64,000 nt of DNA, from NCBI GenBank assembly GCA_000004985.1, contig GG738864.1; one strand, written 5' to 3'. The stretch's first letter is position 1. Each line of letters starts with the position of its first letter. Origin of the DNA: Naegleria gruberi. Its lineage: Eukaryota. Made by a program: the position numbers and the translations under genes. Below, in pieces: positions 21,002 through 48,212 of the stretch. Under the pieces are notes generated by a model. It worked only from the letters and a program-made list of their open reading frames with translations, made no database searches and was not told the DNA's origin.

Positions 21002-21119
21002 GACTACAGCACCACAGGTTCCCAAGTTGTCTCCAACCTCAGTACTGATGTGGCTCGACGATGCTTAACTTCTCAAATCGGACGGGATGAGGTGCATTCA
21101 TCGTGATATGGCCGTAGCC
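21002..21119 (-). rRNA. 5S ribosomal RNA gene, copy 1 of 3.
   Basis: The minus strand reads GGCTACGGCCATATCACGATGAATGCACCTCATCCCGTCCGATTTGAGAAGTTAAGCATCGTCGAGCCACATCAGTACTGAGGTTGGAGACAACTTGGGAACCTGTGGTGCTGTAGTC followed by TTTTT. It is 118 nt with the 5S consensus blocks (CGGCCATA, CCCGTCCGAT, AAGTTAAGC, AGTACT, GGGAA, GGTGCTGTAG). The 5'/3' ends can pair as helix I, and an oligo-T Pol III terminator follows. Confidence 0.85.
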
Positions 21120-21341
21120 ATTCATTACCTCAAATTGTCAAATATAAATCTTTTATTGTTTATTGATGACTTGCTTCAATTTGATCAAGACATATTCAAC
21201 AAACTTTCCTTGAGATGGAGAGAAAATTTCATGCCCACACTATTAAAGACTTCCTCTTCATGAATTCCTTGCGCACAACAAAACTGAATTCTAACATGAT
21301 TCTCAATACGTGTCATTCAATAAATACTTTTAAAAAAAATA

Positions 21342-23474
21342 ATGACAGGCAAAGAACAAAATACTCACCAGATTCTCCCCAAAGCTTCCTCTAACGCTCT
21401 ACAAACAGTACAATCAGAACAATATGATTATCTTGAGGACCAAAATGTCGATGAGTTAATTTGTTCAATTTGTTTGTTTCCGTTTGTTGATCCAATTTCA
21501 CATAGTACATGTGGAAATACCTTCTGTTCAACATGTGTGGAAAAGGTTGTGAATTGTCCAATGTGTGGTGAAGATGAATTCAAGAAGAATTGTTCACCAA
21601 GTGCAAAGGTGGTCATAAACATGTTGGATAAATTGAAAGTTAGGTGTGGAATGTGCAAGACAATTGTCCCAAGAGGCGAACTGAAAGACCATCAAGACAA
21701 ATATTGTCCACTCCATGGAGCCTATCAACAAGTTGAAGAATTAAAGAAGAAGTTGGAAGCAGAACACCTTGAAAAGCTTGAGATTGCTCAAAAAGAACTT
21801 GAAGAAAAGATGAAAAGTTTGCAAGTAGATCATGAACAATATTTGCAAAAAGCACAAGAGAATTTGACAAGGAGAGAAGAGGAATTACTCCAACAAGCAA
21901 AGAAAAAAGAAGAATTGTTGGAAAACCAAATGAAGGAACTTAAAAATCAAGTTGTGGCCAGAGAGAAATTTGAATCAACCAACAAACCTATCCATTTAAA
22001 TGTTGGTGGAACTATTCTTACTGTTTCATTGGGAGCTTTTATTCACAATGAAAGAGAACCTGATAATTTATTCAAGAAAATGTTCACTGGCGAGTATCCA
22101 TTGTATCAAACTCCATCAAAGAAATTCAATGATCCTATTTATTTCATTGATTGTGATCCAGTTATTTTCAAACTCATTCTTGATTGGTTGAAATTTGGTA
22201 TCATTGGAAATGAATTGAGTGATGACATGAAACAATCACTTTTATGTTCTTGCAATTCGTTCGGTATTGAAAATATAACCAAACATTTAAAGGAGAAACA
22301 CAAACAAGTAGCCAAGATGTCACAATTTGACTTTATGAATGTTGTCAATCTTGCAAGAAGTCAAAAAAGCAAACTAAATTTGAGTGGCCTTGATTTAAGA
22401 AAATTAGTGTTAAACAGTACGGATTTGAAGAATGCAGAAATTCTTGGATCTGACTTCAGTGGAATGAATTTGAAAAACACTGATTTCAAAGGAGGAATCT
22501 TGATAGGATGCAATTTCAGTAATTGCACTTTAACAAGTGTAAGAATTCAAGATTGTAATTTGGAAGGATGTGACTTTTCAAATACTATCTTTAAAAATAC
22601 TGACATTTTGAAAAACAATTTGTCAGGTGCCAATTTTGAAAATGCTCAATTTGAAAAGTGCAAAATTCAATGGCATTTTAAAAAGGGAAGAGATAATAAT
22701 TTGAAATATTGTAAATTTGTTGATTGTAATTTCGACGGATCAATATTTGAAGAAATTGATTTTTTTGAATCTATTTTATCATCAAGTAATATATTTAATA
22801 CTGGAACAATCAAGAATGCAGATTTAAGACAATGGAAAGATTTATCCAAATTCAAAGAAATGAAATTTGATTCATGTGTGTTTAATTTTACTGAAGAAAC
22901 AACAAAGGATATCATAGTTCCATTTGAATGTGATATTATTGACTTTGAAACCTCTTTGGCATTATATTCACATACTGAAAGTAAAGCAATTCCTCAATTA
23001 CTATATAAGGGAACAAGAGATGGATTTAATGGTTATTCCTTTCATCCTAAATGTGATAATCGCGGCCCAACATTAACAATTATCAAATCAGAACATGACC
23101 AAATATTTGGTGGATTTACCTCTAAACCTTGGACATCAAACAGATCACCACAGACCTATGTTTCAGATGAATCTGCATTTATTTTCAAAATTGAAAAAGA
23201 TTCAACAAATCAAAATTATCAATTTAGAAAATTCAATATCAAACAAGATAAGAAACAATATGCTATTAACGTTTTTGAAGGTTTTTTGCCAAAGTTTGGG
23301 GAAGACATTTATATTTGCAATGATTGTGATTCTCAAAATCAATCATATTCAGGATTAGGCTATGCTTATGAATCACCAAACAACTTTTCGAGCAATGAGA
23401 CACAAAGCTATTTGGCAGGAAGTTCCCCTTTCAAAGTTAAAGAAATAGAAGTTTTTCTTATTAAAAATTATTAA
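21342..23474 (+). CDS. RING finger, TRAF-type zinc finger, coiled coil, BTB/POZ (KCTD-like), pentapeptide repeats and a C-terminal TLDc domain.
   Basis: ATG at 21342 (aaaaaaaataATG). The RING is CSICLFPFVDPISHSTCGNTFCSTCV..CPMC. The TRAF-zf-like part is KVRCGMCKTIVPRGELKDHQDKYCP. The coiled coil has KK..EE repeats. The BTB part is IHLNVGGTILTVSLGAF...FIDCDPVIFKLILDWLKFG. The pentapeptide repeats are NLSGLDLRKLVLNSTDLKNAEILGSDFSGMNLKNTDFKGGILIGCNFSNC... The TLDc part is LLYKGTRDGFNGYSFHPKCDNRGPTLTIIKSEHDQIFGGFTSKPW. Confidence 0.8.
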   Translation: MTGKEQNTHQILPKASSNALQTVQSEQYDYLEDQNVDELICSICLFPFVDPISHSTCGNTFCSTCVEKVVNCPMCGEDEFKKNCSPSAKVVINMLDKLKVRCGMCKTIVPRGELKDHQDKYCPLHGAYQQVEELKKKLEAEHLEKLEIAQKELEEKMKSLQVDHEQYLQKAQENLTRREEELLQQAKKKEELLENQMKELKNQVVAREKFESTNKPIHLNVGGTILTVSLGAFIHNEREPDNLFKKMFTGEYPLYQTPSKKFNDPIYFIDCDPVIFKLILDWLKFGIIGNELSDDMKQSLLCSCNSFGIENITKHLKEKHKQVAKMSQFDFMNVVNLARSQKSKLNLSGLDLRKLVLNSTDLKNAEILGSDFSGMNLKNTDFKGGILIGCNFSNCTLTSVRIQDCNLEGCDFSNTIFKNTDILKNNLSGANFENAQFEKCKIQWHFKKGRDNNLKYCKFVDCNFDGSIFEEIDFFESILSSSNIFNTGTIKNADLRQWKDLSKFKEMKFDSCVFNFTEETTKDIIVPFECDIIDFETSLALYSHTESKAIPQLLYKGTRDGFNGYSFHPKCDNRGPTLTIIKSEHDQIFGGFTSKPWTSNRSPQTYVSDESAFIFKIEKDSTNQNYQFRKFNIKQDKKQYAINVFEGFLPKFGEDIYICNDCDSQNQSYSGLGYAYESPNNFSSNETQSYLAGSSPFKVKEIEVFLIKNY

Positions 23475-23659
23475 AAATTTTACAATTCTGAGGAGAAGAA
23501 GAAATTTCCACTCAAATTGGAGGAAAAGATCTAGCACTCTATTTGTCATATTGAAATATGTAACTCTCAAATACTGTAGAACCATACTCGTTTGGGAAAT
23601 TCCATATAAAAATTATATATAAAATAGTTAAATTCAATGTATTATTGAGATATGAGTTT

Positions 23660-25033
23660 CTAATTAAGATAATTGTGTAATTTTAAATATTTGATTCCAT
23701 CCAGGTCTACACACTTATTCTTCAGTTGTAATTTTTTCAAAGTGCTAATTTGAGAAAGGTAATCCCATCCGTATGAGTCAATTGAGTGCTCAGAATGTGA
23801 TATGTCAAGCTCAGTAAGCGATGGCAGTTTTGAAATTTCACAAATTTCAGTCCTGCTTAACTTGCTATTCGACAAATCTAAAACTCTCAAATTTTCCAAC
23901 CTTGAAATCATTGTAAATTCCATTCCACTCAATCCAGTATTTGAGGCATTGAGGTATGTCAAATATTTCAATTTGGAAAAATTGATATAGTTAGTAGGAT
24001 CGTTCAATCCACTTGGTTTCTTGTCACGGATTGAAAGATACTCTAATTTTTGTAAACCTTCTATTAGATGTTTGAGACCTGAGTAGTTGGCATTCTCAAT
24101 AGTTAAGCGAGTCAAATTTGGTAAAGTGGACAAATGTTTACACCCTAATTCTCCAATCTCGTTATCAGTTATATCCAAACTTTTCAGTGAGCTCATTTTG
24201 GCTATATGATTACACCCCTCACAGGTTATATTACAATTTCTCAAAGAAAGTGACGTTAAACTATTCATTGTAGAAATTATTTGTAATGTGTTGTCCATAT
24301 TAATTTTCTCCAATGAGAGAGAATCTAACTCAGTTAAATTAACTAAATGATTGATTTTCGCAGAGTCCAATCTAAAAATTTCAATATTATTGGCATCCAT
24401 TGAAAGATCTCTCACCTTAGTCAATTTTGAAATATTCTTCAACGTGTTCTCAATTACTTCACCCTGTTCATGTTCATTCACAAAAGAACATTTCAAACTT
24501 GTTAAACTATTTTTCAGTTCCAAAAGAAATGCAAAATCTCTACTTTCAGGAAAATAACATCCACCCACATTCAAAACTCTAAGATTTTTCAATTTTGTCA
24601 AATATTCTGGTTTGGGAGCTACCATTTCTCGCCTCTCAACAATCAATGTTTCTAAATCGCTCAAATCACCAGCAAGACATTCAACTTCCAAACCAAAATA
24701 CAATTTCTTCAATTCCAAATAATGTAACTTCTTCATAAATCCCTTCTTACAATATTCTACAAAACTCATAACCATTACACGATTCCGATCGCCATCATCA
24801 CCTCCTCTATTATTATTGTTATTATTACTATTATATTCTATCGACATGGGAATACAAAATCTAATCCAATCAGTCCATTTTCTACAAATTAAACTCAAAT
24901 CCTTGATCAAATATTTAGATGAAAAGTAGGGAAGAATAGAGTACAATACAACGTCATCCGATAATTTTCCAAACTCTCCATCGTAGAGAATTTTAATTCC
25001 TCCTCCTCTTCTGAATTTGTGTGTTGTTGCCAT
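23660..25033 (-). CDS. F-box-like / leucine-rich repeat protein (RNI-like LRR).
   Basis: ATG at 25033. The N-terminus (VVLYSILPYFSSKYLIKDLSLICRKWTDWI) resembles an F-box. The remainder is LRRs of about 24-28 aa with L..L.L..N.I consensus (LTELDSLSLEKINMDNT..., LTSLSLRNCNITCEGCNHIA..., LKSLDITDNEIGELGCKHL...). Confidence 0.7.
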   Translation of the reverse strand: MATTHKFRRGGGIKILYDGEFGKLSDDVVLYSILPYFSSKYLIKDLSLICRKWTDWIRFCIPMSIEYNSNNNNNNRGGDDGDRNRVMVMSFVEYCKKGFMKKLHYLELKKLYFGLEVECLAGDLSDLETLIVERREMVAPKPEYLTKLKNLRVLNVGGCYFPESRDFAFLLELKNSLTSLKCSFVNEHEQGEVIENTLKNISKLTKVRDLSMDANNIEIFRLDSAKINHLVNLTELDSLSLEKINMDNTLQIISTMNSLTSLSLRNCNITCEGCNHIAKMSSLKSLDITDNEIGELGCKHLSTLPNLTRLTIENANYSGLKHLIEGLQKLEYLSIRDKKPSGLNDPTNYINFSKLKYLTYLNASNTGLSGMEFTMISRLENLRVLDLSNSKLSRTEICEISKLPSLTELDISHSEHSIDSYGWDYLSQISTLKKLQLKNKCVDLDGIKYLKLHNYLN

Positions 25034-25155
25034 TTTTTAATAAATTAAATACAATTATTTACAATTAATTTATTTAACAGTTTTATTTAATTTAAATATT
25101 TAACAATTATCCTAATTTATTTAACAGATTTCAACTTTATTCGCGATTTGAAGGA

Positions 25156-26145
25156 TTATTGGGTCTTGTTGATACACTTCTTACATGCCTCACAATGGCA
25201 TGCACATTTACAATTCCCGAGTTCAATGTTCAATTCTTTGATACCTTCAATCTCTTCAGTTTTCTCTACCAAAGTTGTTTGTAAATTATGAACAACTTCA
25301 GGGTGAGATAGTTGCTTAAAGTAGTTCATAATATCAAGGCACTTTTTCTTCAAGAGCTCAATATCTTTCTTCAAAAATTCATTGTCATGCTTTAAGATTT
25401 CATTATCTTTCTTCAAGAACTCAACATCTTTCTTCAAATTCTCAACGTCCTTCTCCAAAGACTCATTTTGCATTTTAAACATTCCATTATCTCTATTCAA
25501 AGACTCATTGTCTTCTATAACCATAGTTATTAGCTTGTTTTGATTTTGGTACTGCTTATCATGCATGCTCTTAGAGACCTCGTCCTCTTGAACAGATACA
25601 CCAGAACCATCAACAACCTCATTATCCTTTGAACTTGGCATCTTGGTGTTCTCCATATTATCAGCAACAGGAGTTGTTAAATTTCTTACCGAACCACTAA
25701 TAAATTGTTCCAAACTGCTCTCTTCCACACTTCTATTATTCACTTCCACTGACTCCTTAATAAGCTGAACAAGCTTGTTGAAGTATTTTTTCCAAAAAGC
25801 AACAGGGAGACCAAGAAGAGTTTCTCCAAACTTTTTCTCTGTTTCAAAGTGCAACTCAAAAGCCTTCTCAATTTCAACAGAAGAAACATTAGAATGTTCC
25901 TTCTTGAATTTTTGATCCCAGAAATGAAGAACGATACGCCTGGCTACATTCTTGTTGGATTTCATCACCTCTTTCAAAGCCTTGGAGACCTCCTTTTCTG
26001 ATGAAAAATCAAATAACAACTCATTAGAAATAAATAGCATGTGATGAACAATGTCGAAAACAAGCTTACGAAGATCTTTATCTTTGTATTTGCCATTAAT
26101 GACGTTCTTCAAGATAATAATTTGTTCGGTCGTCACTGGTTTCAT
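25156..26145 (-). CDS. Coiled-coil protein with tandem approximately 8-residue repeats and a C-terminal Cys cluster.
   Basis: ATG at 26145 (MKPVTTEQIIILKNV...). A repeated LKKD/EFLKKD unit (DVENLKKDVEFLKKDNEILKHDNEFLKKDIELLKKK) is encoded by imperfect roughly 24-bp tandem DNA repeats at about 25360-25480. The C-terminus is CKCACHCEACKKC. Confidence 0.5.
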   Translation of the reverse strand: MKPVTTEQIIILKNVINGKYKDKDLRKLVFDIVHHMLFISNELLFDFSSEKEVSKALKEVMKSNKNVARRIVLHFWDQKFKKEHSNVSSVEIEKAFELHFETEKKFGETLLGLPVAFWKKYFNKLVQLIKESVEVNNRSVEESSLEQFISGSVRNLTTPVADNMENTKMPSSKDNEVVDGSGVSVQEDEVSKSMHDKQYQNQNKLITMVIEDNESLNRDNGMFKMQNESLEKDVENLKKDVEFLKKDNEILKHDNEFLKKDIELLKKKCLDIMNYFKQLSHPEVVHNLQTTLVEKTEEIEGIKELNIELGNCKCACHCEACKKCINKTQ

Positions 26146-26391
26146 TAGTAAGGTTTGAGTGTTTTTTTTGAGGTTGTTTTTTACCGCCGAAACCTCAATA
26201 CTCAGCTAGCTACCAGAATTAGTTCATCTTGTGCTTGGAGTCTAGCCTTGTTGTTGAAAACAATGAACAAACAAAATTATTGTTTTATCACAAAAGAACC
26301 ATAGCAACTAGTTTACCACTTCATTTCCCACTTCGTTCTATACCATCTTTCAAAATGAATATAAAGAGGTTTCATTCACGTCAAAAAAGTT

Positions 26392-27749
26392 TTATTTACT
26401 CAAGTTAATAGCCTTCAATTCTGAGATAACATAGTCACCACATAAAACAGATGGATACTTTTCAGATTTCCATTCTTCCTTAATTGGACCAATATCTTCA
26501 TCAGCAGCAACGTGTGAGAATAAGGTAGAAGAAACTCTCCACAATGGACGACCAGCTTGCTTTTGTCTTTCAACAGCTTCTAAAGTTTCTGGAATAACAG
26601 CAACTTCATGGTATCCAGACATGATGGTACCACCAGTCAACCATTCCAATTGCTTACCAGCTTGCAATAATAAACAGCCCTTTGGGACTTTAACTTGGAG
26701 CTTTTTACCACTTCTGAGCCAGATGAACAAGCCTGGATATCTAGAAGCAGAGTGAATGGTAATAAAGTTCAAATCAAAGTGGAAACCAGCAAGAACAGTA
26801 CCCAATTCGTTATACTTATTGAGGTCAGAACCAGTTGGAGCAAGTAAATGTCTACCATACTTTAACAAGCTGGTCAATTTATCCTTTTCGAGTCCTAAAC
26901 CTAATGCCAACATTTCACTGACAGTGCCAACTGCATTGACCATATTGTTGGCCCAACTAGTTTCCAATAATTTCAATCATCCATCATCATCAACATATTA
27001 ATTACAATTATTCCGATAACAATTATCAAATTTCCGAAAATTCACATTATTATGTGATGATAGTGTACAATAAATCAATGAATAAATAATTGATTGATAA
27101 TAATATGAAACAAACCTGTCCATCTTTTCCATCCAAATATCCTTGAAAGCTTCTGGGACTACATTTGGTTGATTGAGACCTGGGAACTAATTGTTTGAGG
27201 TTAGAATTTAATAATATTATATAGTAATATTTACCTTAGTTTCTTTTGATTGGGAAAATTAATTAATTAATTAAATAAATTAAAAATTAAAAAAAACTAA
27301 ATATTAATTCCCTAATTTGGTACCTACCTGGATTTTGATTTCCTACTGGATGGAAAAATCTCCATTTAGGGTCTGTTCCCTTGGTTGGACTATCAAATAA
27401 TTAATACTGTCAATTGAGAAACAACTTACGTTGGCTTGCTTTCAATGTCATCTGGTAATGAAGTGGCAATATATTCGGTGTTATCTCTTGGACGTTCAGT
27501 TTTTTCAGGTGTGGCACCAATTTGATAAGACCATTCTGGATGAACGTCTTTCATCTTGACTTCAGTTGGTTGAGCATAATAATCTTCCATCATATCCAAA
27601 AAATCAGAAGCAGTTTCAAAAGTGACTCTAGGGTCTCTAATAATCAATGCAGAAGTTTCACGGAATGATTTATAAATTCTATCAACATCTTCTTGTTTAA
27701 CATTTCCTGAGAGATAGTCAGCAAGATCGACAATTTGAATTTCCTCCAT
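26392..27749 (-). CDS. 2-oxoglutarate/Fe(II)-dependent dioxygenase-family protein. Multi-exon.
   Basis: Exon 1 is 27426..27749 (ATG at 27749; MEEIQIVDLADYLSGNVKQEDVDRIYKSFRETSALIIRDPRV, an N-terminal DIOX_N-like region). Short exons lie in 26977-27425 (e.g. ..TPTKGTDPKWRFFHPVGNQNP, 50-55 nt introns with GTAAGT/GTAGGT). The last exon is 26392..26976 and carries an HxD...H iron-binding triad (AGFHFDLNFITIH ... SGYHEV) and an R-x-S motif (RVSSTLF). Internal exon boundaries were not fully resolved. Confidence 0.65.
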
Positions 27750-28005
27750 TATTATTATTAGTAGTGGGGTGTGAATAGTTGAAAAAAGTGAGCGGTAGTG
27801 TTGTGCGCTTTTTTTTTGTGTTGAAAAATTTATTTAACGGGAGTCTCGTTCGCTTTATGAAAATGTCCATTAGTGGTTGGCTCAGTGTGAGGTGGGTACT
27901 TGTAAGATAATCGATTGATTTTGAAATTTAGTTGACTTGCTCGATTTTCACCATTTCGAGTTGGTTTGGGTGTGTAGTCAACCGTAGGTTATAGTGGTAT
28001 GTTGT

Positions 28006-32965: not shown

Positions 32966-35900
32966 ATGCAACCCGACGATCGTTTCACTTCTTCTCTGTC
33001 ATTATCGCACTCTTTACCAAATCCGAACCAGAGTAACAACAATAATAACATCAACAACAATAATCAAGGGAGTAATCGTGCAAATAATAAAACAACAAGG
33101 GTTGGAGGGCATCAGCAGCAATCATCAGGGTTTTATCCACAGCAGCAGCAACAGCAACAACATTTTAATAATTTATTTCCTCAACAAACTCAACAAATGA
33201 TGATACAAGAACATCACCAACAACATTCCTTACGACAATCTCCTGTACCACCATCATCCACAATGCAACAACACCCTGCAACCATGTACAATTATAATTC
33301 CTCCTCACCAATGAATTCACCAATGAATAATAATAATATGAATAATATGAATAACACTCCTAATCATCATTCAAGATTCAATACCTCATCACAAGTAACC
33401 TCTACATCAGTACACCAATCATCAATGCACTACAATACTAACAATAACATTGGAAATAATTACGCAATTAATTCCTCAACAAGTGCACCTTTCAATAATT
33501 CAACCAATACTACTAATACTACTACAACAAATCAGTTCTCATCAGGGAATAATACATTTTCCGATTTCTATTCGGCGAAGGCTCAGCAATCTAATTCTAA
33601 ACCTGGTGAATTGGGTCAGAACACTAATATGCTGCTCACAAATTCGGGTTCTGTACACACAAACACTAACTACCAAAATGTATATAAGAACGATCATCTA
33701 CTCACAACTAGTCAATTAATACCCAATACTAATAACATGCCAAACCAAACATACAACGATTTCAATATCACAACAAACCAATTACAATCGTCTTCTCCAT
33801 CTATTCATTCACCTAATTTTCACTCCTCTTCATCTAGTGACAAGAATAGCAATACTGTGATTGAGCTACCAAAACCCAAAAAGAAGACCAAGTCAAAACC
33901 TCCTGCCGGAGTTGGTCAATTAAGTTTTACCATTCCACCAATAGCATCGGAAGAACGGTTTGATGATGTTTCTGAAGCAGTTGCATTTAGTGGAACTAAG
34001 CTTTTCCCCATTGCCTGTGTGGCTTGTAGGCAAAGACACAAAAAGGTTTGTTATTTACACTAGTATCAATGTTTTTTAATCATCTTTGCAAAAATTGGTT
34101 ATTCGGATTAATATAGTGTGATAGAACCATTCCATCTTGTTCAGGTTGTTCTTCTAAAGGTATTGAATGTCAATATAGAACTCCAAGAAAGAAAGGAAGG
34201 GCACTGCAAAGTAATGATGGATTTCAAACTTTTACCTCACTAGATGAAATCAAGTATATCCCACAATCCCAAGGTTTTACCGATACTGAAACAGTAATGA
34301 ATGCTACGATGCCTTCTAATTCTCTTTCTGTCAGTCCACCAAAGGATTTGGGTATTGATGATATTGTAACGAAGAAGAGAAAGAAATCACAAAAGAAGGA
34401 AGAATCTGTCCCTAAGAAGTTGGCTGTAGACAGATTACCAACACTAAAAAATGTTGAAACATCACCAAATATTCAAATAGTCAATGTAAATACTAACAAT
34501 GATTATCAACAGCCAACACTAGTTCAACGCAACCAAACCCCTTCTCCAAAACAAGACATCTCCAATAGAATTCAAATTCCTTCAATCAGTCCTTCTGAAC
34601 TTTATGATTCTCCACAAACACAACTTTCTACCGTCACTCCATCAAATAATTATCTGGCAATTCAAAGTAATACTAATAACTTTCCTCTCTTAGCTTCTAA
34701 TGTTGTCCAGCCTGATTTAGCTCCATTTAACGATCCAAATGCGACTGTTGATACAATATCTCAATTACTTGTGCTTTTACTTTCATCTAACAACCAATCT
34801 AATGTTGCTAGCTTGATAAAGGATATTCTCAATAATGGAGATGGGGAAGGTCTTAAAAAATTATTGGGAACCACCTTTGGTTTGGAGAGTTTTATTACCA
34901 CTAATGAGCGTCTTAATATTTCCGCAATCAAAAAAAGAACTGTTGACTTGTATGATGAGATTATTAGTTTTGGCTATCCAATACTTAGTTCCCAATACAT
35001 TGATGAGGCCCTCTCAGCAACAAATATCAGAGCTTACTCGAATGAAAATTTAGCACTCATTTATGCCATTCATGCTGTTACATGTCAAAGACTCTGTGAG
35101 TTGGAGCAAGCCAAACAGGCATACCATAAGAGTTTAATGGAGCTAAAGGAGACTACCGACAAACATAATTTGATTGTGATTGCCACCTATTGCAATTTGG
35201 CCCTTTATTGTGGAGGCACTGGAGATACAGACACTGCTCAACAATTACTGGCATCTGCTGAGATATATTTGCTAAATAGACGAAAATTCAAATTGCAAAC
35301 AAATGATACTAATTTGGTTTTGAATTTTATTGGATGTGACGATTCTACATCATCATTCACCCTTTTTGATAATCTTTCAAATGACGAATTCAAAGTTGAA
35401 AAGTTAAAGGAAGTGTGCTCTGTAGCAGCATATTTAGGTTCTGGATCATCAAAGCCAAGTATTTACATGATTTTAAGAGGTTACTCTTTTGCTGAGGAGA
35501 TTGGAGTTTTCTTATCTGAATGTTTATTACTTTTTGAGGGAAAAATTACTAAAAAGGATTTGAATATTCTAACCAAACCTATAGATGCCAATACATTCTC
35601 TGATTATTTAGGAGTACTGTCAAGAGTTGAGAGTGCCTACTCTGGACATGAGTCTGCTAGACCGTATTCAAGTTTGCAGATGAAATTGGCAGCATCCCTA
35701 CTTCTTTGTGTGCTAGGAGGATCTCGAGCTTGGGTTCTCCATAGAGCTGGTATTAAGGGACCAATTATCGAAGAGTACGCCTCACAAGTAACTAGTTTGA
35801 CCACAACCGAGGGATTCTTGTTACTTCATTCATTGACAATACAGTTTGTTGCTAAAGCACTGGAAATACATTATGAGACAGTTTGCGATGCAGAAAGTGG

Positions 35901-36246
35901 TTTAAGGAAGAACAATGACTTGTTGGAATTGTATCAAACCATGTTCACATGTTTCAATTCACTTGTCGAGTTGAGTAAGAGATTTACGCGTATTTTAAGG
36001 TTTTATCCTAATCTTTTACATATCACGGCTATTAAATTGATGTCAAGAGGGTTCACGGGAGAGTCCATTGACCTTGTGATAAAGAACATGCACCCACAAA
36101 CAAGCCCTCATTTTAGATCAGATAATAATTTACAAAATCCTCAAACCGCTGGAGATCACACTGCTGTTGGTAATGAAGTCAAATTCAACTTTGACCAATT
36201 GCTATCTAATTTTATTGCCACCACTATGAAATCACCTTTTAATTGA
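32966..36246 (+). CDS. Zn(II)2Cys6 (GAL4-type) binuclear-cluster transcription factor with a long N/Q-rich N-terminus and a large C-terminal regulatory region.
   Basis: join(32966..34045, 34117..36246). ATG at 32966 (aaaaATG). Exon 1 ends ...IACVACRQRHKK|GTTTGT. A 71-nt intron follows. Exon 2 begins CDRTIPSCSGCSSKGIECQYRTPRKKGR, which completes CxxCxxxxxxC-x6-CxxCxxxxxxC. The join reads in frame into the 34297..36246 ORF. Confidence 0.75.
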
Positions 36247-36469
36247 ATAAAATTCCATCTAGGATCTGCATTTTGTACAAGGTTAAATTCAGATTAATTC
36301 TCAAAGGTATCAAAAACTGCGCTCAAATATTCAATTATTTGTTTAGCTATTTGGAAATGCTGTTATTACTGTTGGCAATGTATCTTAAACTCAAATTGAA
36401 TTTTACCATTAGTATCTTACATTATTACTCTATTACTGCAGTTTAGCAAATGGAATTCTCAAATAAAAA

Positions 36470-36587
36470 GACTACAGCACCACAGGTTCCCAAGTTGTCT
36501 CCAACCTCAGTACTGATGTGGCTCGACGATGCTTAACTTCTCAAATCGGACGGGATGAGGTGCACGAATCGTGATATGGCCGTAGCC
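36470..36587 (-). rRNA. 5S ribosomal RNA gene, copy 2 of 3.
   Basis: Same 118-nt sequence as copy 1 except a 3-nt change (..GATTCGTGCACC..). An oligo-T terminator follows (+ strand aaaaa at 36465-36469). It shares about 45 bp of 5'-flank with copy 1 (attcattacc(t/a)caaattgtcaaatataaatct(t/c)ttattgttt). Confidence 0.85.
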
Positions 36588-36769
36588 ATTCATTACCACA
36601 AATTGTCAAATATAAATCTCTTATTGTTTCCTTGCGATGGAGAAAATTTCAATATTGTAAAAATTATGAAATATAAACTTGGGAATTTAAATGAATCCGT
36701 GGTGTTGCAATTTTTCATTTCTACAAAGTCTAGTAGTGAGAACATTATACATCTTTTATATCTTTACAA

Positions 36770-39700
36770 TTAGACAGAGATTTCTGGAATTAATCTTCTT
36801 TCTTCTACACATTTCCTAACCCAATCCCCAGAGACAAGTTTGAGGTTTACTCTAGCTGCCTTTCTCTTTAGTGATTGTAAGCGGGTGGTATTTTCACTCT
36901 CATCATGCACAATATGTGTCACTTCAGTGGTGAGTAAATTACTGACCTTTCCTCCGTGTAAACGAATGTAAACTTCCAAAGTGTCCAATCCAAGAATCAG
37001 TTCTGAGCTTGGATCTCCAAACTTTTCATACTTGTCAATAAAAGCTACAACTCCCTTGAAGAATGATGTTTGTGATGTTTTAATCTCGTATCGTGAATTA
37101 ATCATATCAATTTGCTTTGAGTCTAGAACGAAATACTTGGATGAAAGTGAGGCTAATTGAAGCGAGTTTCTCAATGATTCCACCGTAGCATCAAACAAAT
37201 ATTCATCTTGAAATTCGTCCATTTGCTCTTTGAATGAGAGCAATGTGGCTTGAGAAGTATAAATCATGTATCCTGGATGGAATCTCTGCAGAGAGCCATA
37301 TATTACCGATTCAATCAACCACTTGTAATGAATAATATCGCGATCTCCTAGTGGATTCTTTCTATTTTGTGAGGAACTTATCCAATTTCTTACAGTAATA
37401 TCTTTATAAATTCATTTACATTAAAAGTTAAATTTGAAACTTACTATTAGTATTGGCAGCGATGAGATATTGATTCTTATGATCGTTAGGGTTCTGAACT
37501 TTAGTTCCACTATTGGAAACTATCAATTGTTCAATATCATACTTGGATTTATGTTCGTCTCCATTGAAAACAACAAATTCCAATCCTTTAAATAAGCTAG
37601 AGGTCTTATCCAGTTTAGACATATCATAATCAAAGAAATGTGAAACAGCAGCTGTTGCCTTTCTTGATTTTGGTTCCACTTCTGTAAACGTTCCATCAGG
37701 ATTTTGAACCATCTTTTTTCTCTTTTGTTTCTTGATATCATTGTGTGAAACAACAGAGTCCATATTGGCAGCTCTTCTCTTGTGATTACCATTCCTTGAT
37801 ATTTCAATCATTTCCTCTAATCCTTGTAAATCCAGACATTCATTCCAATCCTTATCGTTTCTTATTGATACAACTCTTGGGAATCTTAGTGTGACTCCTG
37901 TTTTAAATTTGGTACTCTCCTGAAAAGAGTATCCCTTAATTTCCAAAATCTTGGAACTTGAATTGTTAATAAAACTTGAAAATAAAAACCTACTGTTTCG
38001 GTTCAATATATACATCAGGCATTTCACCTGCTCCTGGAATCCATTGACCATAAAACTTAGGCAACTTGGTCTTGTCAAAAGGCTTCCAATGAGATTCTAA
38101 ATCTTTTTGTAGAGCCAACAATTCAATGTTGGTATATCCACTTCCTACTTTACAAAATGAGTGAAAAACTTGATTTTCATTGCTTGCTTCATTTTCCTCA
38201 TCCAAATTATCGAGAGCATCCGTGTTCCCCAGACTGTGTTTTGACCTTGTGGCTACAGCTAACAGAAAGTGTGAAACTGATTTTCTCTTAAATTTGGTTC
38301 CATAGAATCCTCCAACAATAATTACATCCAATGTCTCACCCATACCATCGACATGATCAGGTTTCAATTTGATCCACTTTCTCTCACCTGGAATATAGAC
38401 GCCTCCTGTTGGTTTGAGCATGATACCTTCATCTCTATTCATGATGGCAATATCCAACTGCTCGTAAACTTCCTTCTCTGATGATACTGGAGTTTGAGGT
38501 ACCAACTCGAGAACATGGCTCTGGAGATTAATGATATTCTCCAGATAGGTTCTTCTCTTCTTGAGTGGATATTGTGATAGGTCCTTATCTTTCAAATAGA
38601 CTAAATCAAAGACCATGTAGCAAAATTGTTCATTTGTATCGGATGTATCATTCAGAGCATGAGTTCTATTGTGTCCAAATTCCTTAAAGGCCTCCAGCTC
38701 AGTATTCCAAATGAGAAACTCTCCATCTAATATACAAACTTTTGCCTTGATATTATTTCTAATGATGGGTGAAAACTTTGGACCGTACAAGCTCGTATAG
38801 TCCTTGCCATTACGTGTAAAGAACATGATTTCAGATTCCTTCTTGTGTACCAGGATACGTTCTCCGTCATATTTGGGTTCAATGACATATTCATCAGAGG
38901 AGAGAGTTTCAGCCAATTTAGCTGGATGCAACAATGAAGCAAGCATTGGTTTGAACATTGAAAAGACTCTCAATTCAGCTGTTGTGAATTTAAACTTTGG
39001 ATCGAGACACTTTGTAATGACCTCTCTCAGATCAGTACATGAATTGAACAACTCGAGTGCATTCGGATGAAAATGATTCAGAATAGTGGTGTGTTGAGTT
39101 CCAATTCTTAAATCTTTGAGAATAATTCTGAGAATCCACTTTTGTTCAAAGCATGAAGTGCTCTTGAGAATGTCCAACAGAATCTTCTTTTTTTTATCAT
39201 TATCCCCAGCCATTGATAGTTCAGTTAGTTTTTCATTAATAAAGAATACAGTTAGATTTTTCGATGAGGACCAACCTCTCTTTTGCAAGACTTGAAAGCA
39301 AATATCCGAAAAGCTGTTTCCAGTTCCTTTAGATGGATCTTTCCACTTTTTCAATCTCAGAGCATCTTCACACGTTTGTGGAAGAGCCAGAATTTCAATA
39401 TAATACTTGGCAATTTTCGACTCTTTCAAGCCATAAGTCAGTCTTTCTCTATCCAATTGAGGGAGAAGTAATCTCATAAATTGAAACAAATCACTTCGAC
39501 AACTCACGAAAATCTTATCAAAGATTGCCTTCTTCTCCTTATGTTTGTTATTTTCCGAAAGTTTTTCAAAGTATTTACACAATGTTGCAAATTGAACCCT
39601 ACACGATGGAAGGTTAGGATCATACACTGGTGGAGGATGAGCAGGTAGAGGTGTTCCATTCGAATTACCAATCATACCAGCAAAGAGATTGTTATTATTA

Positions 39701-42709: not shown

Positions 42710-44134
42710 ATGAGCGACTCCAAACTATGCTCCTGTGGTGTTCCCGTCAAAACTTCAACCGTTAGAAAGGAGGGACCTAACAATGGCCGACCATATATGC
42801 ACTGCGAGAAGAGAGATTGTAAATTCTTTGAATGGGCCGATCAACCTTCTTCTTCATCATCAGGCTTTGGTGGTGGATTCAAGAAGCAACAAACAAATTC
42901 TTCATCATCATCAGGCTTTAATTTTGCCAAATCAAATAATAGTAGCAGCAGCTCATCTTCCTATGGAAAATCATTGTCAACAGCAGCTGCTGATCCTAAT
43001 ATTCCTCCAAAGTGTGCAAGCCATCACGAAGATGCCATTCTCAGAAAAGTAAAGAAAGAAGGACCGAATAATGGAAAGTTGTTTTGGTCTTGTGCTAGGG
43101 ATAAGGAAGAGGCTTGCAAGTTTTTTGAATGGTTTAAGGGAAATGATGCTGATGTGGAACATTTGGTTAATGTGAATCCTTCTTCCGCTACCTCGACTGT
43201 TTCTAGTAATGGAGAGGACAAGAAGAGAAAATTTGATGATTCTGAAGATTCGAATACTTTCGAATCAGATAGCAAAAAGGTCAAGGATGATACACCATTT
43301 GAGTTATCTAGTTATTTGCAAGATGAATCATGGAAGGAATTGTTGGATAAGGAATTCCAAAAGTCATACTTTAAGAAATTGAACCAATCTGTTGCTAAGG
43401 AATATGAGGAAAAGCCAAAAACTGTCTATCCAAAGAAGGATGAAATCTTTTCTGCTCTCAATGTTTGCCCATTTGATAATGTAAAGGTTGTAATTATAGG
43501 ACAAGATCCGTATCCTCAATGGTATGCTCACGGAATGTCCTTCTCTGTAAAGAAGGGTGTTACAGTTCCAAAATCCTTACAAAATATTTATCAAGAATTG
43601 GGTAGTGATTCTGATTTGGATAAGCCATTCACAGAACCTGATCATGGCTATTTAATGGGTTTGTTTCTTTACATTTTGAATATTATTGTTAATATCAGTT
43701 TGTTACATTTTCACATAATGTTTATCTATCTGAACAGGTTGGGCTGAACAAGGAGTTCTTTTGTTAAATGCTGTCCTTACAGTTGAGAAGGGAGCTTCCA
43801 ATGCACACAAGGTACGTATTTTTAATGCTTTCTTTATTGAGCTTATTCTAAAATTTAAATTATTCATTATTAGGGCATTGGATGGGAAACTTTTACTGAT
43901 GCTGTCATTGAACAATTGGCAAAGAAGAAGAATCTAGCCTTTTTATTATGGGGTAAAGATGCACAACAAAAAGGAGCCAAAGTTGACAAGAAGAATAATT
44001 TGGTCATTACTACCTCTCACCCTTCACCATTCTCTGCTGATAAAGGATTTTTAGGATCCAAATGTTTCTCTAAATGTAATCAATACTTGGTTCAATGTGG
44101 AATTGAGCCAATTGATTGGTCAAATCTCAATTAA
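42710..44134 (+). CDS. UNG: Uracil-DNA glycosylase (UNG family) with two N-terminal zf-GRF zinc fingers. Three exons.
   Basis: join(42710..43658, 43738..43811, 43874..44134). GRF finger 1 is CSCGVPVKTSTVRKEGPNNGRPYMHCEKRDCKFFEWAD. Finger 2 is CASHHEDAILRKVKKEGPNNGKLFWSCARDKEEACKFFEWF. The UDG core is VVIIGQDPYPQWYAHGMSFSV (water-activating loop GQDPY), then ..DHGYLMG|WAEQGVLLLNAVLTV..|..FLLWGKDAQQK...HPSPFSADKGFLGSKCFSKCNQYL. Introns are 79 and 62 nt (GTTTGT..acag; GTACGT..ttag). Confidence 0.85.
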
Positions 44135-44257
44135 TTTATTAAATCAAAACAATGTATTATTCATCAATTCAATCGTTAATTATTACAATTAACTTGGAAC
44201 AACCATAAAACAGAAGAAAAAAATGTCTCAACTTCCTCCACTATTAGAATCTCCTAA

Positions 44258-44848
44258 CCATGTGCAGCAGTGGACTATAAATTTGGCTGCCCTGGTGTTC
44301 ATTCTAATTGGGTCATTCCGCAAATTCTAATGCAAGGTGCCTATCCGAAAGAGTTTGAAGCATTCCAAGACTTTTCCTTGGTCGTGAATGTTTCCGAGCA
44401 TGCATTCTTTGGTAGTTATAGAAACTATATTGAGAGGAATCCCAACACAATTCGATATTTGCATTTGCCCATTGCTGATTATTCCATTGCTCCAGATGAA
44501 GATCTCATTGAATTGGTGAGTAAGGTTGTTCTTTTAATTGAGGAGGGATTAGCGAGCAACAAGAGGGATAATTTTAAAGTTTACATTCACTGCCTTGGAG
44601 GGAAGGGGAGATCCGGAACATTGACTAGTCTTGTATTTGGTTTGCTCTATAATCGACAATTTTCCAAGACGAAAGAGAGAGAACTGATGAAGGGAGAGGA
44701 AGTTCTCCAGTGGATTCAGAAATTCTTTGAAACCAGATCTACTCCATTCTATCCTATTAAGGACTATTCACCAGAAACTGATGAACAATGTGAACAAGTT
44801 AAACGTTTGATGGAATATTTCAATAACAAGTTAAAAGATGGAAATTAA
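44258..44848 (+). CDS. Dual-specificity / atypical protein-tyrosine-phosphatase-like protein (CX5R active site).
   Basis: The ORF is open from 44258 and the track starts it at GTG 44270. The first in-frame ATG is at about 44330 (..ILMQGAYPKEF). The PTP signature is VYIHCLGGKGRSGTLTSLV (HCxxGxxRSG). An upstream ATG at 44223 is out of frame, so the true 5' end is unresolved. Confidence 0.6.
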   Translation, partial: PCAAVDYKFGCPGVHSNWVIPQILMQGAYPKEFEAFQDFSLVVNVSEHAFFGSYRNYIERNPNTIRYLHLPIADYSIAPDEDLIELVSKVVLLIEEGLASNKRDNFKVYIHCLGGKGRSGTLTSLVFGLLYNRQFSKTKERELMKGEEVLQWIQKFFETRSTPFYPIKDYSPETDEQCEQVKRLMEYFNNKLKDGN

Positions 44849-44889
44849 TTATCGTTCTTTCAAAGATACAATAGAGAAATTGATGTTGG

Positions 44890-47430
44890 TTACATGTAAT
44901 ATTTATTCTCTTCAACTTGTAATTGTTCTCGTTCGTCCTTCTCTAATTGTATGGAATATCTCATAAAGGTGTCGCCACAAACTAAACTCTTGACAACACT
45001 CTCCAAACCATCCAACAAATCTATTTGCCCGTAACCAGCCATAATTTTAGTCACATGAATGTCTCTCGTTTGTTGTGAAATATTGAGCGGAGTCGGAGAG
45101 TGAATTAACAAATAGGTCTCAATTATTTCTTCTTGTTTCTTTGCTCTGTCGGATGGTTTCTTCAAACTCTTATAGAACATGACATCCTCTAAGAAATTCA
45201 AATTCTCCTCAGAACATTCCTTCTTACAAAAACTTCTAAATTCTTCTCTCAAGTTTGGATTGAACAAGACTCTTTCAAATTCCAAATTTTGCTTGAAAGT
45301 TTCCATTTGCTTGACTGCCTTCTTCAATTCCTGTTGGTGAATCATATTTCGAGCAACAATGACAAATACTTGACATGTTAATCCTTCTTCCTCAATTGAC
45401 ATGTTAACTTTTGTTACAGAAATAGTGACAGGTGTATCAAATCCAAGTGGTGAAACGAGAATAGATTCCCATCTTGTTTTAGTTTCAGATAATTCCTCCA
45501 ACTTTTTCAACACATCACCATTCGTTTCACTTTCTTTTCCACTTTCGTCTCCATATTTCAAATAGTCCCCTATGAGACTTCTCGATTTTGTGAGAAATCT
45601 ACTCTCAAAAGCATTATTAAAATTAATCAACTTTCCATTATTGGCATGTGCAGTCACAATGAAATCATCAATACTATTCATAATGACTCTTATCTTTTGC
45701 TCAGAGAGTGACATCTTTTCCAATAATCTTTGCATGAGCTCATTGTCCTGAGTGAGCAATTGTTGAGAAGCATCCAAGGTCTGTAACATGTTATTGACAT
45801 CTTTTGAAAGAATTCCCAATTCATCATTTCCAACTGAAGGTACTCTTTGATTACTGTCATTATTGAGTGTAATTTCTCTGACAGCCCTTGTCAATTTTAA
45901 TACTCTTCTCAAAATGATAAATTCTAAAAAGAGAATTACAGAAATGGAAAGAATAATAATCATGGCAGTCATGACACCCCATGTAATAAAGAAAGAGGTA
46001 ATTCCCAACGTATAGACATCTCTAGGAAAGTCAGTTTTCATTACAAATGTATTTGTGCGAGTAATGTCATAAAATTGTTGATAAACTGTCATTCTAGTTT
46101 CTTCAGTTTCGGATTCTCCACATTGTCTATTGAGAACTGATTGAGTATTTCTGAGCTCAGTATAAGTGGCTGATTTTACAAAATCTCCAGTGTTATTTGT
46201 CCAGTTTCTAACATTTGTAGAGTCTATAATAGTCGGTTTCCAATCTCTTGTTTGTTGATTAATGGAATTGGTCAACTCACTGTCTCTCATCTTGTCAATT
46301 GTCGAATAATCTGATTCAGACATTGTTGATTTCAAAAATGAAACCTTATCATTACTATTATCCAAATTATACATTGTCAAACAAAGTTGAGTTCTTTCAG
46401 ACATGTCACTCATCAAATCTCTTGTTTGAAATCTTGCAAAAACAAGAACTCCATAACTTTTCAAATAATCCGTGTCTTGAATTGGCATTGCACTCAATAA
46501 CATGATATTAGGATAATTCTCCTCTTCAGAAATTCCCCACTTTGTATCATTAGGATATTTCATCATTTGTGAAAAACTTTGAATTGGTGAGAAAATTCCA
46601 ACATTTTTCGTCGAGGTCACTAACATGTTCTTTTTCAATTGATTACCGACTGATGTGTCAAGACTTTGTAATTCTATAGGTATGTAATCGAGTTCATATC
46701 CATTGTAACAACCTAAACCTTTCAGAAGAGTTCCATTCAGATAATAAATCAGAGCATAATTGACATGTGTCGCCAATTGATATTGACAGTGAAGATAATA
46801 CTCTAGATATTGAGTGGCTTTCTGCTGAGCATCTATTCCTGTATTATTCACCACCACGACAGTATCTCCAAAACATGCATATTCAAACACTCGTCTTTCA
46901 TATAAGAATTTGTATACAATTATTCTAAACTAAACCTACCCTGTCAAAGTTACCAAATCATCAGACAATGCCCTTGTCGACCTCTTTGCATCCTCCAAAG
47001 CTATCGATCTCTCCACACTCAAAAAGGAAATATTAAAAGCCACCAACAAGGTCGCCAAAACCAAGGCAACCAACAAGAGAAATAACGAAACCAAAACTGT
47101 AATCGTTTTAAATCGTAAACTTTTCAATTTTCTTATCAAACTCTCACATGCAAGTCCATTTCCATGTTGATATTGCTGTAGATGATAAAAAGAAGATGTA
47201 GCTGATTTTTTTAATTGTGGAATGTCCAATCGTCGTGGTGTTGTAATTATTGACTTGTTTTCATGTGATGTGAAAATTTGTTGTTGATAATTGTTGTGTT
47301 GGTTGAGTAGAGAGGTTGAAGAATTGGAAGAGTTGGTGGGTGTGTTGGTCAATTCGAGGTGAGGAAGGTTTTTGAAGAATTTGCTGGTGGGAGAATTTGA
47401 ACTGTTATTGTTTGTTGTTGTGGTGGTCAT
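44890..47430 (-). CDS. Receptor-like RGS protein: a cytoplasmic N/S/T-rich tail, TM1, a roughly 330-aa extracellular sensor-like domain, TM2, HAMP, PAS, and a C-terminal RGS domain. Two exons.
   Basis: complement(join(44890..46894, 46940..47430)). ATG at 47430 (MTTTTTNNNSSNSP...). TM1 is ITVLVSLFLLLVALVLATLLVAF. Exon 1 ends ..DLVTLTG|GTAGGT, with a 45-nt intron. TM2 is LGITSFFITWGVMTAMIIILSISVILFLEFIIL. The HAMP motif is LKLTRAVREITLNNDSNQRVPSVGNDELGILSKDVNNMLQTL. The PAS-like segment is IRVIMNSIDDFIVTAHANNGKLINFNNAFESRFLTKSRSLIGDYL. The RGS segment is FERVLFNPNLREEFRSFCKKECSEENLNFLEDVMFYKSL...SPTPLNISQQTR...GDTFMRYSIQL. Confidence 0.75.
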
Positions 47431-48094
47431 GGGTTTCGTTTTGTTTTTTTTGATGTTTAGAATAGAATGGACGGGATTGGCAGTCTTGTGAAGTGGCTGT
47501 TGTGGAGACCTTATTGTAAAGTGAAGAGTCAAAATATTTTCCCTAAACGAAAAATAATACCTTAAATGGGAAGTTAATGGATGAATAGTAGGACCAAACT
47601 TTGCTTCATTTTCAATTCATCTTCCTTCTCCTGCTGTGTATTTTGGATAAATTGTAATTCAGGTGTGATGACCGAATAGTTCTGCATCAATTTCCAATAA
47701 TTACTCGACAAGCAAGCCTTTGATCCAATTTAAATTCTTTTGTAGTACTCTTGATGAGGGAATAACTTTTTCTTTGATCTTGCTCCTTGAGGACCTTCAT
47801 TGCAAAATTCTTTTCTAATTCTTGTTGGTGTTATCAAAACCATTAAATTGTTCTTCATCAATTTGTTTCCGAAAAATATTCATACCATTTCAATGAGACA
47901 CTTAGTTGTTGGGGTATTTAAAGTTTATATTACTGATGATGGTATCCAATCCAACGATCACACCACTATTAAGATGTTTCATGGCTTGTCCTCAATCCAG
48001 CATTTTTTTTGTAAATTTTGAACTCGAAACTTAAAACAATTTCAATGAAATAGTAAGGAGTTAAGGACAATAAAGGAGTAAAGGACAATAAAAA

Positions 48095-48212
48095 GACTAC
48101 AGCACCACAGGTTCCCAAGTTGTCTCCAACCTCAGTACTGATGTGGCTCGACGATGCTTAACTACTCAAATCGGGCGGGATGAGGTGCATTCATCGTGAT
48201 ATGGCCGTAGCC
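48095..48212 (-). rRNA. 5S ribosomal RNA gene, copy 3 of 3.
   Basis: 118 nt, identical to copy 1 except two substitutions (..GATTTGAGTAGTT.. / CCCGCCCGAT). An oligo-T terminator follows (+ aaaaa 48090-48094). Its 5'-flank diverges from copies 1-2 after about 9 nt. Confidence 0.85.

What the first reader, a model, noticed from the sequence alone, without database searches (positions are those of the whole stretch)
21002..48212. Three dispersed, near-identical 5S rRNA genes in one 27-kb stretch, all on the minus strand, two sharing a ~45-bp 5' flank
Copies at 21002-21119, 36470-36587 and 48095-48212 differ by only 2-3 substitutions. They are interspersed among Pol II genes at about 12-15 kb spacing rather than sitting in an rDNA repeat. 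Each ends in TTTTT (the A-runs on the + strand). Copies 1 and 2 share the upstream block attcattacc(t/a)caaattgtcaaatataaatct(t/c)ttattgttt, while copy 3 diverges after about 9 nt. This implies either a conserved upstream promoter element or a recent duplication unit larger than the gene. Together with tRNA-Ala at 59240, the window is unusually dense in Pol III genes. The substitutions could also mark variant or pseudo 5S copies.
Basis: partly seen in the sequence, partly recalled or inferred. Interest (0 to 1): 0.5.

Follow-up and report, generated by a model that had tools for sequence, protein, structure and literature searches.

The report
Three catalogued Naegleria 5S rRNA genes
The window is Naegleria gruberi scaffold_20, and the three elements are ordinary, already published members of that amoeba's ~279-copy dispersed 5S rRNA gene family; the flank shared by two of them comes from a small local DNA duplication, not from a long conserved promoter.

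Summary
Rfam finds three full-length 5S rRNA genes on the minus strand at 21001-21119, 36469-36587 and 48094-48212 (98-105 bits, threshold 38). Each ends in a T5 run.

The window is Naegleria gruberi NEG-M scaffold_20, shown by exact protein matches. A 2012 census of 279 N. gruberi 5S genes lists copies at 117000, 132468 and 144093. Their spacings (15,468 and 11,625 bp) match the window exactly, so the three copies are already published. Naegleria rDNA sits on an extrachromosomal circle without 5S, so dispersed 5S genes are expected.

The genome holds about ten such triplets (about 4 expected), so the local density is modest.

Copy 1 carries the modal similarity value. Copies 2 and 3 are minor variants hitting otherwise invariant positions. 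The internal control region is identical in all three.

The 42-bp flank of copies 1 and 2 is absent from three independent Naegleria-type 5S genes, so it is duplication-derived. Copy 2 also carries, further upstream, a diverged copy of copy 3's promoter region.

What recurs across 5S and tRNA genes is a TATA-like stretch near -25 and AATGAAT at the start. This is suggestive only.

Verdict: known and ordinary.

The parts
21001..21119 (-). 5S rRNA gene copy 1. It carries the modal census similarity value, so it is inferred to be the canonical sequence. Published as R33531, scaffold_20:117000-117116.
   Evidence: RF00001 105.4 bits. Canonical three-way junction fold, -41.5 kcal/mol. Identical to the 5S in metagenome locus L003. 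Census similarity 0.75, shared by 161 of 279 copies.
21120..21161 (-). Upstream block of copy 1 (-1 to -42): AATGAAT abutting +1, TTTATATTT (TATA-like) at about -29 to -21. 40/42 identical to copy 2.
20995..21000 (-). Pol III terminator T-run (CTTTTTAT on the gene strand). Homology between copies ends here.
36469..36587 (-). 5S rRNA gene copy 2, a variant with GAA to TCG at nt 21-23 that loses the terminal G-C pair of helix II. Published as R33822.
   Evidence: RF00001 97.9 bits with a non-canonical pair flagged. Fold -38.3 kcal/mol. Pair 21-59 is broken only in this copy. Census similarity 0.725.
36588..36655 (-). Copy-1-type upstream block of copy 2 (-1 to about -68): the 42-bp shared block plus GAAATTTTCTCCATCGCAAGGAAAC, which matches copy 1 at -111 to -85.
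36648..36697 (-). Distal block of copy 2 (-61 to -110), homologous to the whole proximal promoter region of copy 3 (-2 to -52). It includes CCCAAGTT and a TATA-like element, so copy 2 has two stacked promoter blocks. The TATA-like elements are 61 bp apart.
   Evidence: Local alignment score 41 over 52 columns; 0 of 4000 random 60-mers reach it. Blastn 29 bp at 86%, E=3e-4. Pattern matches at 36599 and 36660.
48094..48212 (-). 5S rRNA gene copy 3, a variant with T38C (loop C) and A49T (the first of the two conserved adenines, 'AA', in Rfam's helix III consensus). Published as R33821.
   Evidence: RF00001 99.7 bits. Fold -41.4 kcal/mol. Both positions are invariant in the other 7 sequences. Census similarity 0.733.
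48213..48264 (-). Upstream promoter region of copy 3: ATAATGAAT abutting +1, GATAATT at about -28, CCCAAGTT at -36.
59240..59312 (+). tRNA-Ala(TGC). Its upstream CCCAAATTGTATAATTTAGAAGTAATGAATgtaa resembles the 5S promoters.
   Evidence: Alignment to copy 1 P=0.004 and to copy 3 P=0.008 against random 60-mers.

Best explanation
These are three autonomous Pol III transcription units of the dispersed nuclear 5S rRNA gene family of Naegleria gruberi NEG-M. The family has about 279 copies scattered over at least 117 scaffolds. The 18S/5.8S/28S genes live on an extrachromosomal circle that has no 5S.

Each unit is about 0.2 kb and fits in a 0.5-1 kb gap between protein-coding genes. The gaps are divergent, convergent and tandem for copies 1, 2 and 3 respectively. 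Each unit has a TATA-like A/T stretch at about -30 to -20, AATGAAT abutting +1, a 119-nt gene and a T5 terminator. The gene's internal control region (box A at 50-57 onward, box C at 80-97) is identical in all three copies.

Copy 1 carries the modal census value. Copies 2 and 3 are minority variants of the kind expected in a large family evolving by birth-and-death under purifying selection.

The copies spread by small DNA-level duplication or rearrangement of the unit, not by retroposition, because untranscribed upstream DNA was copied too. Copies 1 and 2 share about -68 to +125. Copy 2 additionally retains, at -110 to -61, a diverged copy of the copy 3 promoter.

Shown: identity, location, structure, flank homologies and prior publication. 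Inferred: transcription of each copy, the role of the upstream motifs, and the order of the duplication events.
For: Rfam scores of 98-105 bits. Canonical folds. Compensatory changes at two helix pairs in related sequences. Exact matches of five window ORFs to N. gruberi NEG-M proteins on a 441,990-bp contig. Spacings identical to scaffold_20 entries in PMC3369914 Table S1, with similarity values that track the 0, 3 and 2 substitutions. The same paper reports no rDNA linkage, an ICR and a TATA box. The rDNA circle carries only 18S/5.8S/28S (PMC5805870). Flank homologies and their limits. The 42-bp block is absent from independent 5S loci. Enrichment of an A/T run (6/9, P=0.006) and of AATGA/TGAAT at -12 to -1 (5/9, Bonferroni-corrected 3e-4 and 1e-3). 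Box A (AGTTAAGC at 50-57) and box C (16 of 18 specified positions at 80-97) were read directly from the sequence against the consensus quoted.
Against: No expression data were available, so transcription of each copy is inferred. Calling copy 1 canonical rests on sharing the modal similarity value, which does not prove sequence identity with the other 160 copies. The upstream-motif statistics rest on nine genes that are not fully independent: copies 1 and 3 share ancestry, and the two tRNA-Glu genes in L004 may be duplicates. The motif was also noticed before it was tested. The direction and order of the flank rearrangements cannot be resolved from three copies.
Confidence: 0.9

Rival explanations
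1. Copies 2 and/or 3 are decaying pseudogenes, either not incorporated into ribosomes or not transcribed, and not functional variants.
For: Their substitutions hit positions invariant in all seven other Naegleria-type sequences, including a different lineage. Copy 2 loses a helix II G-C pair and 3.2 kcal/mol and 7.5 bits. Copy 3 changes a conserved loop C U and the first A of Rfam's conserved 'AA' (alignment). Only 7 and 27 of 279 census entries share their similarity values.
Against: Both score about 60 bits above threshold. They keep the whole fold, an identical internal control region, a promoter-like flank and an intact T5 terminator. There are no indels or truncation, unlike the 15 or so short entries in the census.
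Confidence: 0.3
2. The whole 42-45-bp block shared by copies 1 and 2 is a conserved upstream promoter element kept by selection.
For: 40/42 identity next to unrelated DNA. It contains a TATA-like element at the position where the published census reports a TATA box.
Against: Copy 3 and the independent 5S genes in L002, L004 and L006 lack the block beyond short motifs. Homology between copies 1 and 2 continues further upstream with an indel, as expected for common descent. The 18-mer core occurs only at copies 1 and 2, plus the diverged distal block of copy 2.
Confidence: 0.08
3. The copies are 5S-derived SINEs or retroposed 5S transcripts.
For: They are dispersed, short and near-identical, with unrelated flanks.
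Against: They are full-length 119-nt genes with no tail, no poly-A and no target-site duplication. Homology ends 6 nt after the gene, while untranscribed upstream DNA is shared, which RNA-mediated copying cannot produce.
Confidence: 0.02
4. The three copies form a degenerate tandem 5S array, as the 'tandem arrangement: Y' entry in the 2012 paper's Table 1 would suggest.
For: Same strand. Census copies are more clustered than a uniform scatter: 101 of 279 have a neighbour within 16 kb, against 20% expected.
Against: The spacers are 11.6 and 15.5 kb of unrelated protein-coding genes with no repeat-unit homology beyond about 0.2 kb. Genome-wide the smallest gap is 462 bp and only 9 gaps are under 2 kb.
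Confidence: 0.03

Closest known systems
Naegleria gruberi 5S rRNA gene family as catalogued in PMC3369914 (PLoS One 2012, Table S1)
   Same: These are the same three loci: scaffold_20 117000-117116, 132468-132584 and 144093-144209, with identical spacings. The paper reports no rDNA linkage, an ICR and a TATA box.
   Different: The paper starts the gene 3 nt further in (at T4 of the Rfam model). It marks the arrangement as 'tandem', which its own coordinates do not support. It does not describe flank homologies or similarity to tRNA upstream regions.
Dispersed 5S rRNA genes of Schizosaccharomyces pombe, Neurospora and other filamentous fungi (from my own knowledge: dispersed copies evolving by birth-and-death, and an upstream TATA required for Pol III genes in S. 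pombe)
   Same: Single 5S units scattered among Pol II genes. Near-identical coding sequence with unrelated flanks. A TATA-like element about 25-30 bp upstream, also present at tRNA genes.
   Different: A different eukaryotic supergroup (Heterolobosea). The copy number is roughly ten times that of S. pombe. The rDNA is extrachromosomal. The AATGAAT motif at the start is not the fungal consensus.
[quoted passage not shown]
   Same: A two-part upstream architecture: an A/T-rich TATA-like stretch plus a short motif at the start site, alongside internal promoter boxes.
   Different: The motif sequence differs. No functional test exists for Naegleria.
5S-derived SINEs
   Same: Dispersed 5S-like sequences.
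   Different: No tail, no poly-A and no target-site duplications. These are full-length genes with their own terminator and shared upstream DNA.

Membership tests
5S rRNA (Rfam RF00001) | Covariance-model score at or above the gathering threshold over the full model | tested here: met
   105.4, 99.7 and 97.9 bits against 38, model positions 1-120.
5S rRNA (Rfam RF00001) | Three-helix-junction secondary structure, supported by covariation | tested here: met
   All three fold to the canonical Y shape. Two pairs show compensatory double changes in L005 and L006. That is only two sequences, probably from one lineage.
Eukaryotic Pol III 5S gene (type 1 promoter) | Internal control region: box A about +50-64, box C about +80-97 | tested here: met
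   AGTTAAGC at 50-57 fits N[GC][CT][CT]AANC. GAGGTTGGAGACAACTTG at 80-97 fits 16 of 18 positions of the box C consensus quoted. Identical in all three copies. PMC3369914 also reports an ICR.
Eukaryotic Pol III 5S gene (type 1 promoter) | T-run terminator directly after the gene | tested here: met
   CTTTTTAT after all three copies.
Eukaryotic Pol III 5S gene (type 1 promoter) | TFIIIA encoded in the genome | not tested
   PMC3369914 reports no TFIIIA found in N. gruberi by BLASTp/PSI-BLAST. I did not search for it.
Eukaryotic Pol III 5S gene (type 1 promoter) | Actual transcription of each copy | not testable with these tools
   No expression data available.
Tandem 5S rDNA array | Head-to-tail repeats of gene plus homologous spacer | tested here: not met
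   The spacers are 15.5 and 11.6 kb of unrelated coding DNA, and homology is limited to about 0.2 kb.
rDNA-linked 5S | 5S located within the 18S-5.8S-28S unit | tested here: not met
   No other rRNA in the window. The N. gruberi rDNA circle carries 18S, 5.8S and 28S only (PMC5805870).
5S-derived SINE / retropseudogene | 3' tail or poly-A, target-site duplications, no shared upstream DNA | tested here: not met
   Homology ends 6 nt after the gene, upstream DNA is shared, and no flanking direct repeats were found.

The most novel reading that the evidence does not exclude
Naegleria Pol III genes, both 5S and tRNA, share an upstream core promoter: a TATA-like stretch at about -30 to -20 plus an AATGAAT initiator-like motif at the start, sometimes preceded by CCCAARTT at about -35. 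If TFIIIA is truly absent, as PMC3369914 reports, this element could carry much of the 5S promoter function. Naegleria 5S transcription would then depend more on upstream sequence than the classical type 1 scheme allows. The stacked double promoter of copy 2 would be a natural variant of this arrangement.
Probability: 0.3. Interest if true: 0.4.

Novelty: already known. Interest (0 to 1): 0.13.

Why it matters
It matters little. The loci, their copy number, their separation from the rDNA and their TATA box and ICR were published in 2012, and dispersed 5S genes are well known in other eukaryotes. The modest added value is threefold. First, flank homology shows DNA-level spread of about 0.2-kb units, not RNA-mediated spread, and copy 2 carries two stacked promoter blocks. 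Second, a short upstream motif pair shared by 5S and tRNA genes could be tested genome-wide as a heterolobosean Pol III promoter. Third, the published 'tandem arrangement' label is not supported by the paper's own coordinates.

Tried and rejected
1. A yeast or fungal origin, my first guess from 34% GC and long ORFs. Pfam domains and the ligase IV homologues rejected it.

2. Synteny of the 5S gene next to ligase IV in Willaertia magna. The look-up of P0002 found no record.

3. Retrieval of deposited N. gruberi gene models or further scaffold sequence.

4. Collection scans for the 5S core 22-mer. They gave one metagenome contig (L002) and nothing in the prokaryotic genome or viral collections.

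A concatenated four-frame peptide worked and gave four loci.

6. A promoter-like site at 34294 (+): AATCCCAAG, 20 nt, then GTAATGAAT|GCTACG. It is not above chance: score 23-25, and 14% of random segments do as well.

7. A degraded copy-3-type distal block upstream of copy 1. Not supported (P=0.39 and 0.97).

8. Other RTAATGAAT sites in the window lack any TATA or CCCAA context and are mostly inside ORFs.

9. A permissive Rfam scan found no further small RNA genes in the window.

10. The sigma-70 promoter and intrinsic-terminator scan is not applicable to a eukaryote and was uninformative.
Full report
**Observation.** An Rfam scan of the whole window gives exactly four hits above threshold. 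Three are full-length 5S rRNA genes on the minus strand, at 21001-21119 (105.4 bits), 48094-48212 (99.7) and 36469-36587 (97.9), against a gathering score of 38. The fourth is tRNA-Ala(TGC) at 59240-59312. A permissive scan adds nothing credible.

Copy 2 differs from copy 1 by three adjacent substitutions, GAA to TCG at nt 21-23. Copy 3 differs from copy 1 by T38C and A49T. All three genes are followed by TTTTAT. Copies 1 and 2 share 40 of 42 nt directly upstream. Copy 3 shares TAATGAAT and 13 of 15 nt, then diverges.

**Source of the window.**
- The window is 34% GC and compact, with long ORFs.
- Pfam domains are protist-like: Kelch+Ras, BTB+pentapeptide+TLDc, and CHASE4+HAMP+RGS.
- The DNA ligase IV ORF is closest to Willaertia magna (71% identity) and Acrasis kona (51%), which places it in Heterolobosea.
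- Five window ORFs are exact matches to Naegleria gruberi NEG-M RefSeq proteins on a 441,990-bp contig.

**Prior knowledge.** PMC3369914 (PLoS One 2012) searched the JGI N. gruberi assembly and lists 279 putative 5S genes in its Table S1. Scaffold_20 has entries at 117000-117116, 132468-132584 and 144093-144209. These give spacings of 15,468 and 11,625 bp, exactly those of the window copies.
- Their similarity values (0.75, 0.725, 0.733) differ by 3/120 and 2/120, matching the substitutions I count.
- The window therefore starts at scaffold_20:96,001, and all three genes are already catalogued (R33531, R33822, R33821).
- The same paper states that the genes are not linked to rDNA, that they have an internal control region and a TATA box, and that TFIIIA was not found.
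- PMC5805870 shows that the 14,007-bp rDNA circle of N. gruberi carries only 18S, 5.8S and 28S.
- Dispersed nuclear 5S genes are therefore the expected state in this organism.

**Census.** I re-analysed Table S1.
- There are 279 entries on 117 scaffolds; 264 are at least 112 nt long, and 161 share copy 1's similarity value.
- The median same-scaffold gap is 34 kb. The smallest gap is 462 bp, and only 9 gaps are under 2 kb.
- 101 of 279 copies have a neighbour within 16 kb, against 20% expected for a uniform scatter over 41 Mb.
- There are 10 consecutive triplets within 27.2 kb, against about 4 expected.
- The family is dispersed with mild local clustering. This window is one of about ten such loose clusters and is not an outlier.
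- The paper's 'tandem arrangement: Y' is not borne out by its own coordinates.

**The genes themselves.**
- All three fold into the canonical three-way junction. Copy 2 loses the terminal G-C pair of helix II: -38.3 against -41.5 kcal/mol.
- I recovered five further Naegleria-type 5S sequences (L002-L006). One came from a metagenome scan for the 5S core. Four came from searching for spurious ORFs that gene callers had placed across 5S genes.
- In the eight-sequence alignment, L005 and L006 carry compensatory double changes at two helix pairs (C-G to U-A and A-U to G-C). The positions changed in copies 2 and 3 are invariant in all the others.
- Box A (AGTTAAGC at 50-57) and box C (80-97, 16 of 18 consensus positions) are identical in the three copies. 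This was read from the sequence against the consensus quoted.
- Copy 1 is thus the likely canonical gene. Copies 2 and 3 are minority variants, and I cannot tell whether they are functional.

**Flanks.** Homology between copies stops 6 nt after the gene. There is no tail, poly-A or target-site duplication, so a SINE or retroposon origin is rejected.

Upstream, the flanks are a mosaic.
- Copies 1 and 2 share -1 to -42, plus a further 27-bp match (89%) displaced by about 46 extra bp in copy 1. Their common unit is roughly -68 to +125.
- Copy 3's entire proximal region (-52 to -2) is homologous to a distal block of copy 2 at -110 to -61. The alignment scores 41 over 52 columns, and 0 of 4000 random 60-mers reach that score.
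- Copy 2 therefore carries a copy-3-type promoter block stacked on a copy-1-type block. The two TATA-like elements are 61 bp apart.
- Copy 1 has no such distal block.
- Shared untranscribed DNA means the copies spread at the DNA level. The order of events cannot be resolved from three copies.

**Promoter or duplication scar?** The independent 5S genes in L002, L004 and L006 do not have the 42-bp block. As a whole, the block is therefore a product of duplication.

Shorter features do recur.
- The tRNA-Ala upstream region (CCCAAATTGTATAATTTAGAAGTAATGAATgtaa) aligns to the copy 1 and copy 3 promoters, with P=0.004 and 0.008.
- Nine genes were compared: four 5S genes, tRNA-Ala, and the tRNA-Met and two tRNA-Glu of L004.
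- An A/T run of at least 8 nt lies in -35 to -15 in 6 of the 9, against an intergenic background of 0.23 (P=0.006).
- AATGA or TGAAT lies in -12 to -1 in 5 of the 9. P is 3e-7 and 1e-6, or 3e-4 and 1e-3 after correction for all 1024 5-mers.
- Caveats: the motif was noticed before it was tested; copies 1 and 3 share ancestry; and the two tRNA-Glu genes may be duplicates. With those removed the signal would be only marginal.
- I found no paper on Naegleria Pol III promoters in the held library.

**Context.**
- Copy 1 lies in a 525-bp gap between divergent genes (ATGs at 20816 and 21342).
- Copy 2 lies in a 523-bp gap between convergent stop codons, at 36246 and at the ligase IV stop at 36770.
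- Copy 3 lies in a gap of about 970 bp between tandem genes.
- There is no consistent relation to Pol II gene orientation.

**Verdict.** This is a real feature, correctly read by the first stage, but it is ordinary and already published. The only mildly new points are the stacked promoter of copy 2, the DNA-level origin of the shared flank, and a candidate upstream motif pair common to 5S and tRNA genes.

Noticed in passing
window 59190-59239 (+), upstream of tRNA-Ala: CCCAAATTGTATAATTTAGAAGTAATGAATgtaa resembles the 5S promoters (CCCAARTT, TATA-like element, RTAATGAAT). The post-hoc composite CCCAARTT.{0,1}KATAWT occurs 3 times in the window against 0.03 expected, each time upstream of a Pol III gene.
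   Followed up: partly
L004 1-1354 (ENA ERZ929261, k127_101776): A dense Pol III cluster in 1.35 kb: tRNA-Glu, a 121-nt 5S variant with a 2-nt insertion in loop C (92 bits), tRNA-Met, tRNA-Glu and a partial tRNA at the contig edge. Spacing is much tighter than anything in the window.
   Followed up: partly
L001, L003 (ENA ERZ929261, PRJEB11402): A public 'metagenome' assembly holds contigs identical to N. gruberi NEG-M: ligase IV at 100% and a 5S identical to copy 1. The sample evidently contained N. gruberi or a very close strain.
   Followed up: no
P0054-P0057; window 21087-21263 (+), 36555-36773 (+): Short ORFs that read across or antisense to 5S genes and their promoters have been called as proteins in public collections (69-192 aa, no Pfam domains). 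These are spurious 'proteins' derived from 5S rDNA.
   Followed up: partly
PMC3369914, Table 1 versus Table S1: The paper scores N. gruberi 5S as 'tandem arrangement: Y', but its own coordinates show no tandem arrays (smallest gap 462 bp, median 34 kb). Its gene start is also 3 nt inside the Rfam 5' end.
   Followed up: yes
L005 6297-6411, L006 374-492: The 5S genes of another Naegleria-like lineage carry CCAC/GTGG to CTGC/GCAG compensatory changes in the same helix. L005 also has U to C near the 3' end.
   Followed up: partly
window 44890-46890 (-): An ORF combining CHASE4 and HAMP domains (bacterial-type sensor modules) with a C-terminal RGS domain. This is an unusual eukaryotic signalling architecture.
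   Followed up: no
window 19098-20816 (-) and 21342-23474 (+): A Kelch-propeller ORF ends in the first third of a Ras/Roc GTPase domain, so it continues after an intron. Its divergent neighbour combines BTB, pentapeptide repeats and TLDc. 5S copy 1 sits between their start codons.
   Followed up: no
window 34260-34315 (+): AATCCCAAG, 20 nt, then GTAATGAAT|GCTACGATGCC at the start of ORF 34297-36246 looks like a 5S promoter plus gene start. It is not above chance in an unbiased alignment test.
   Followed up: yes
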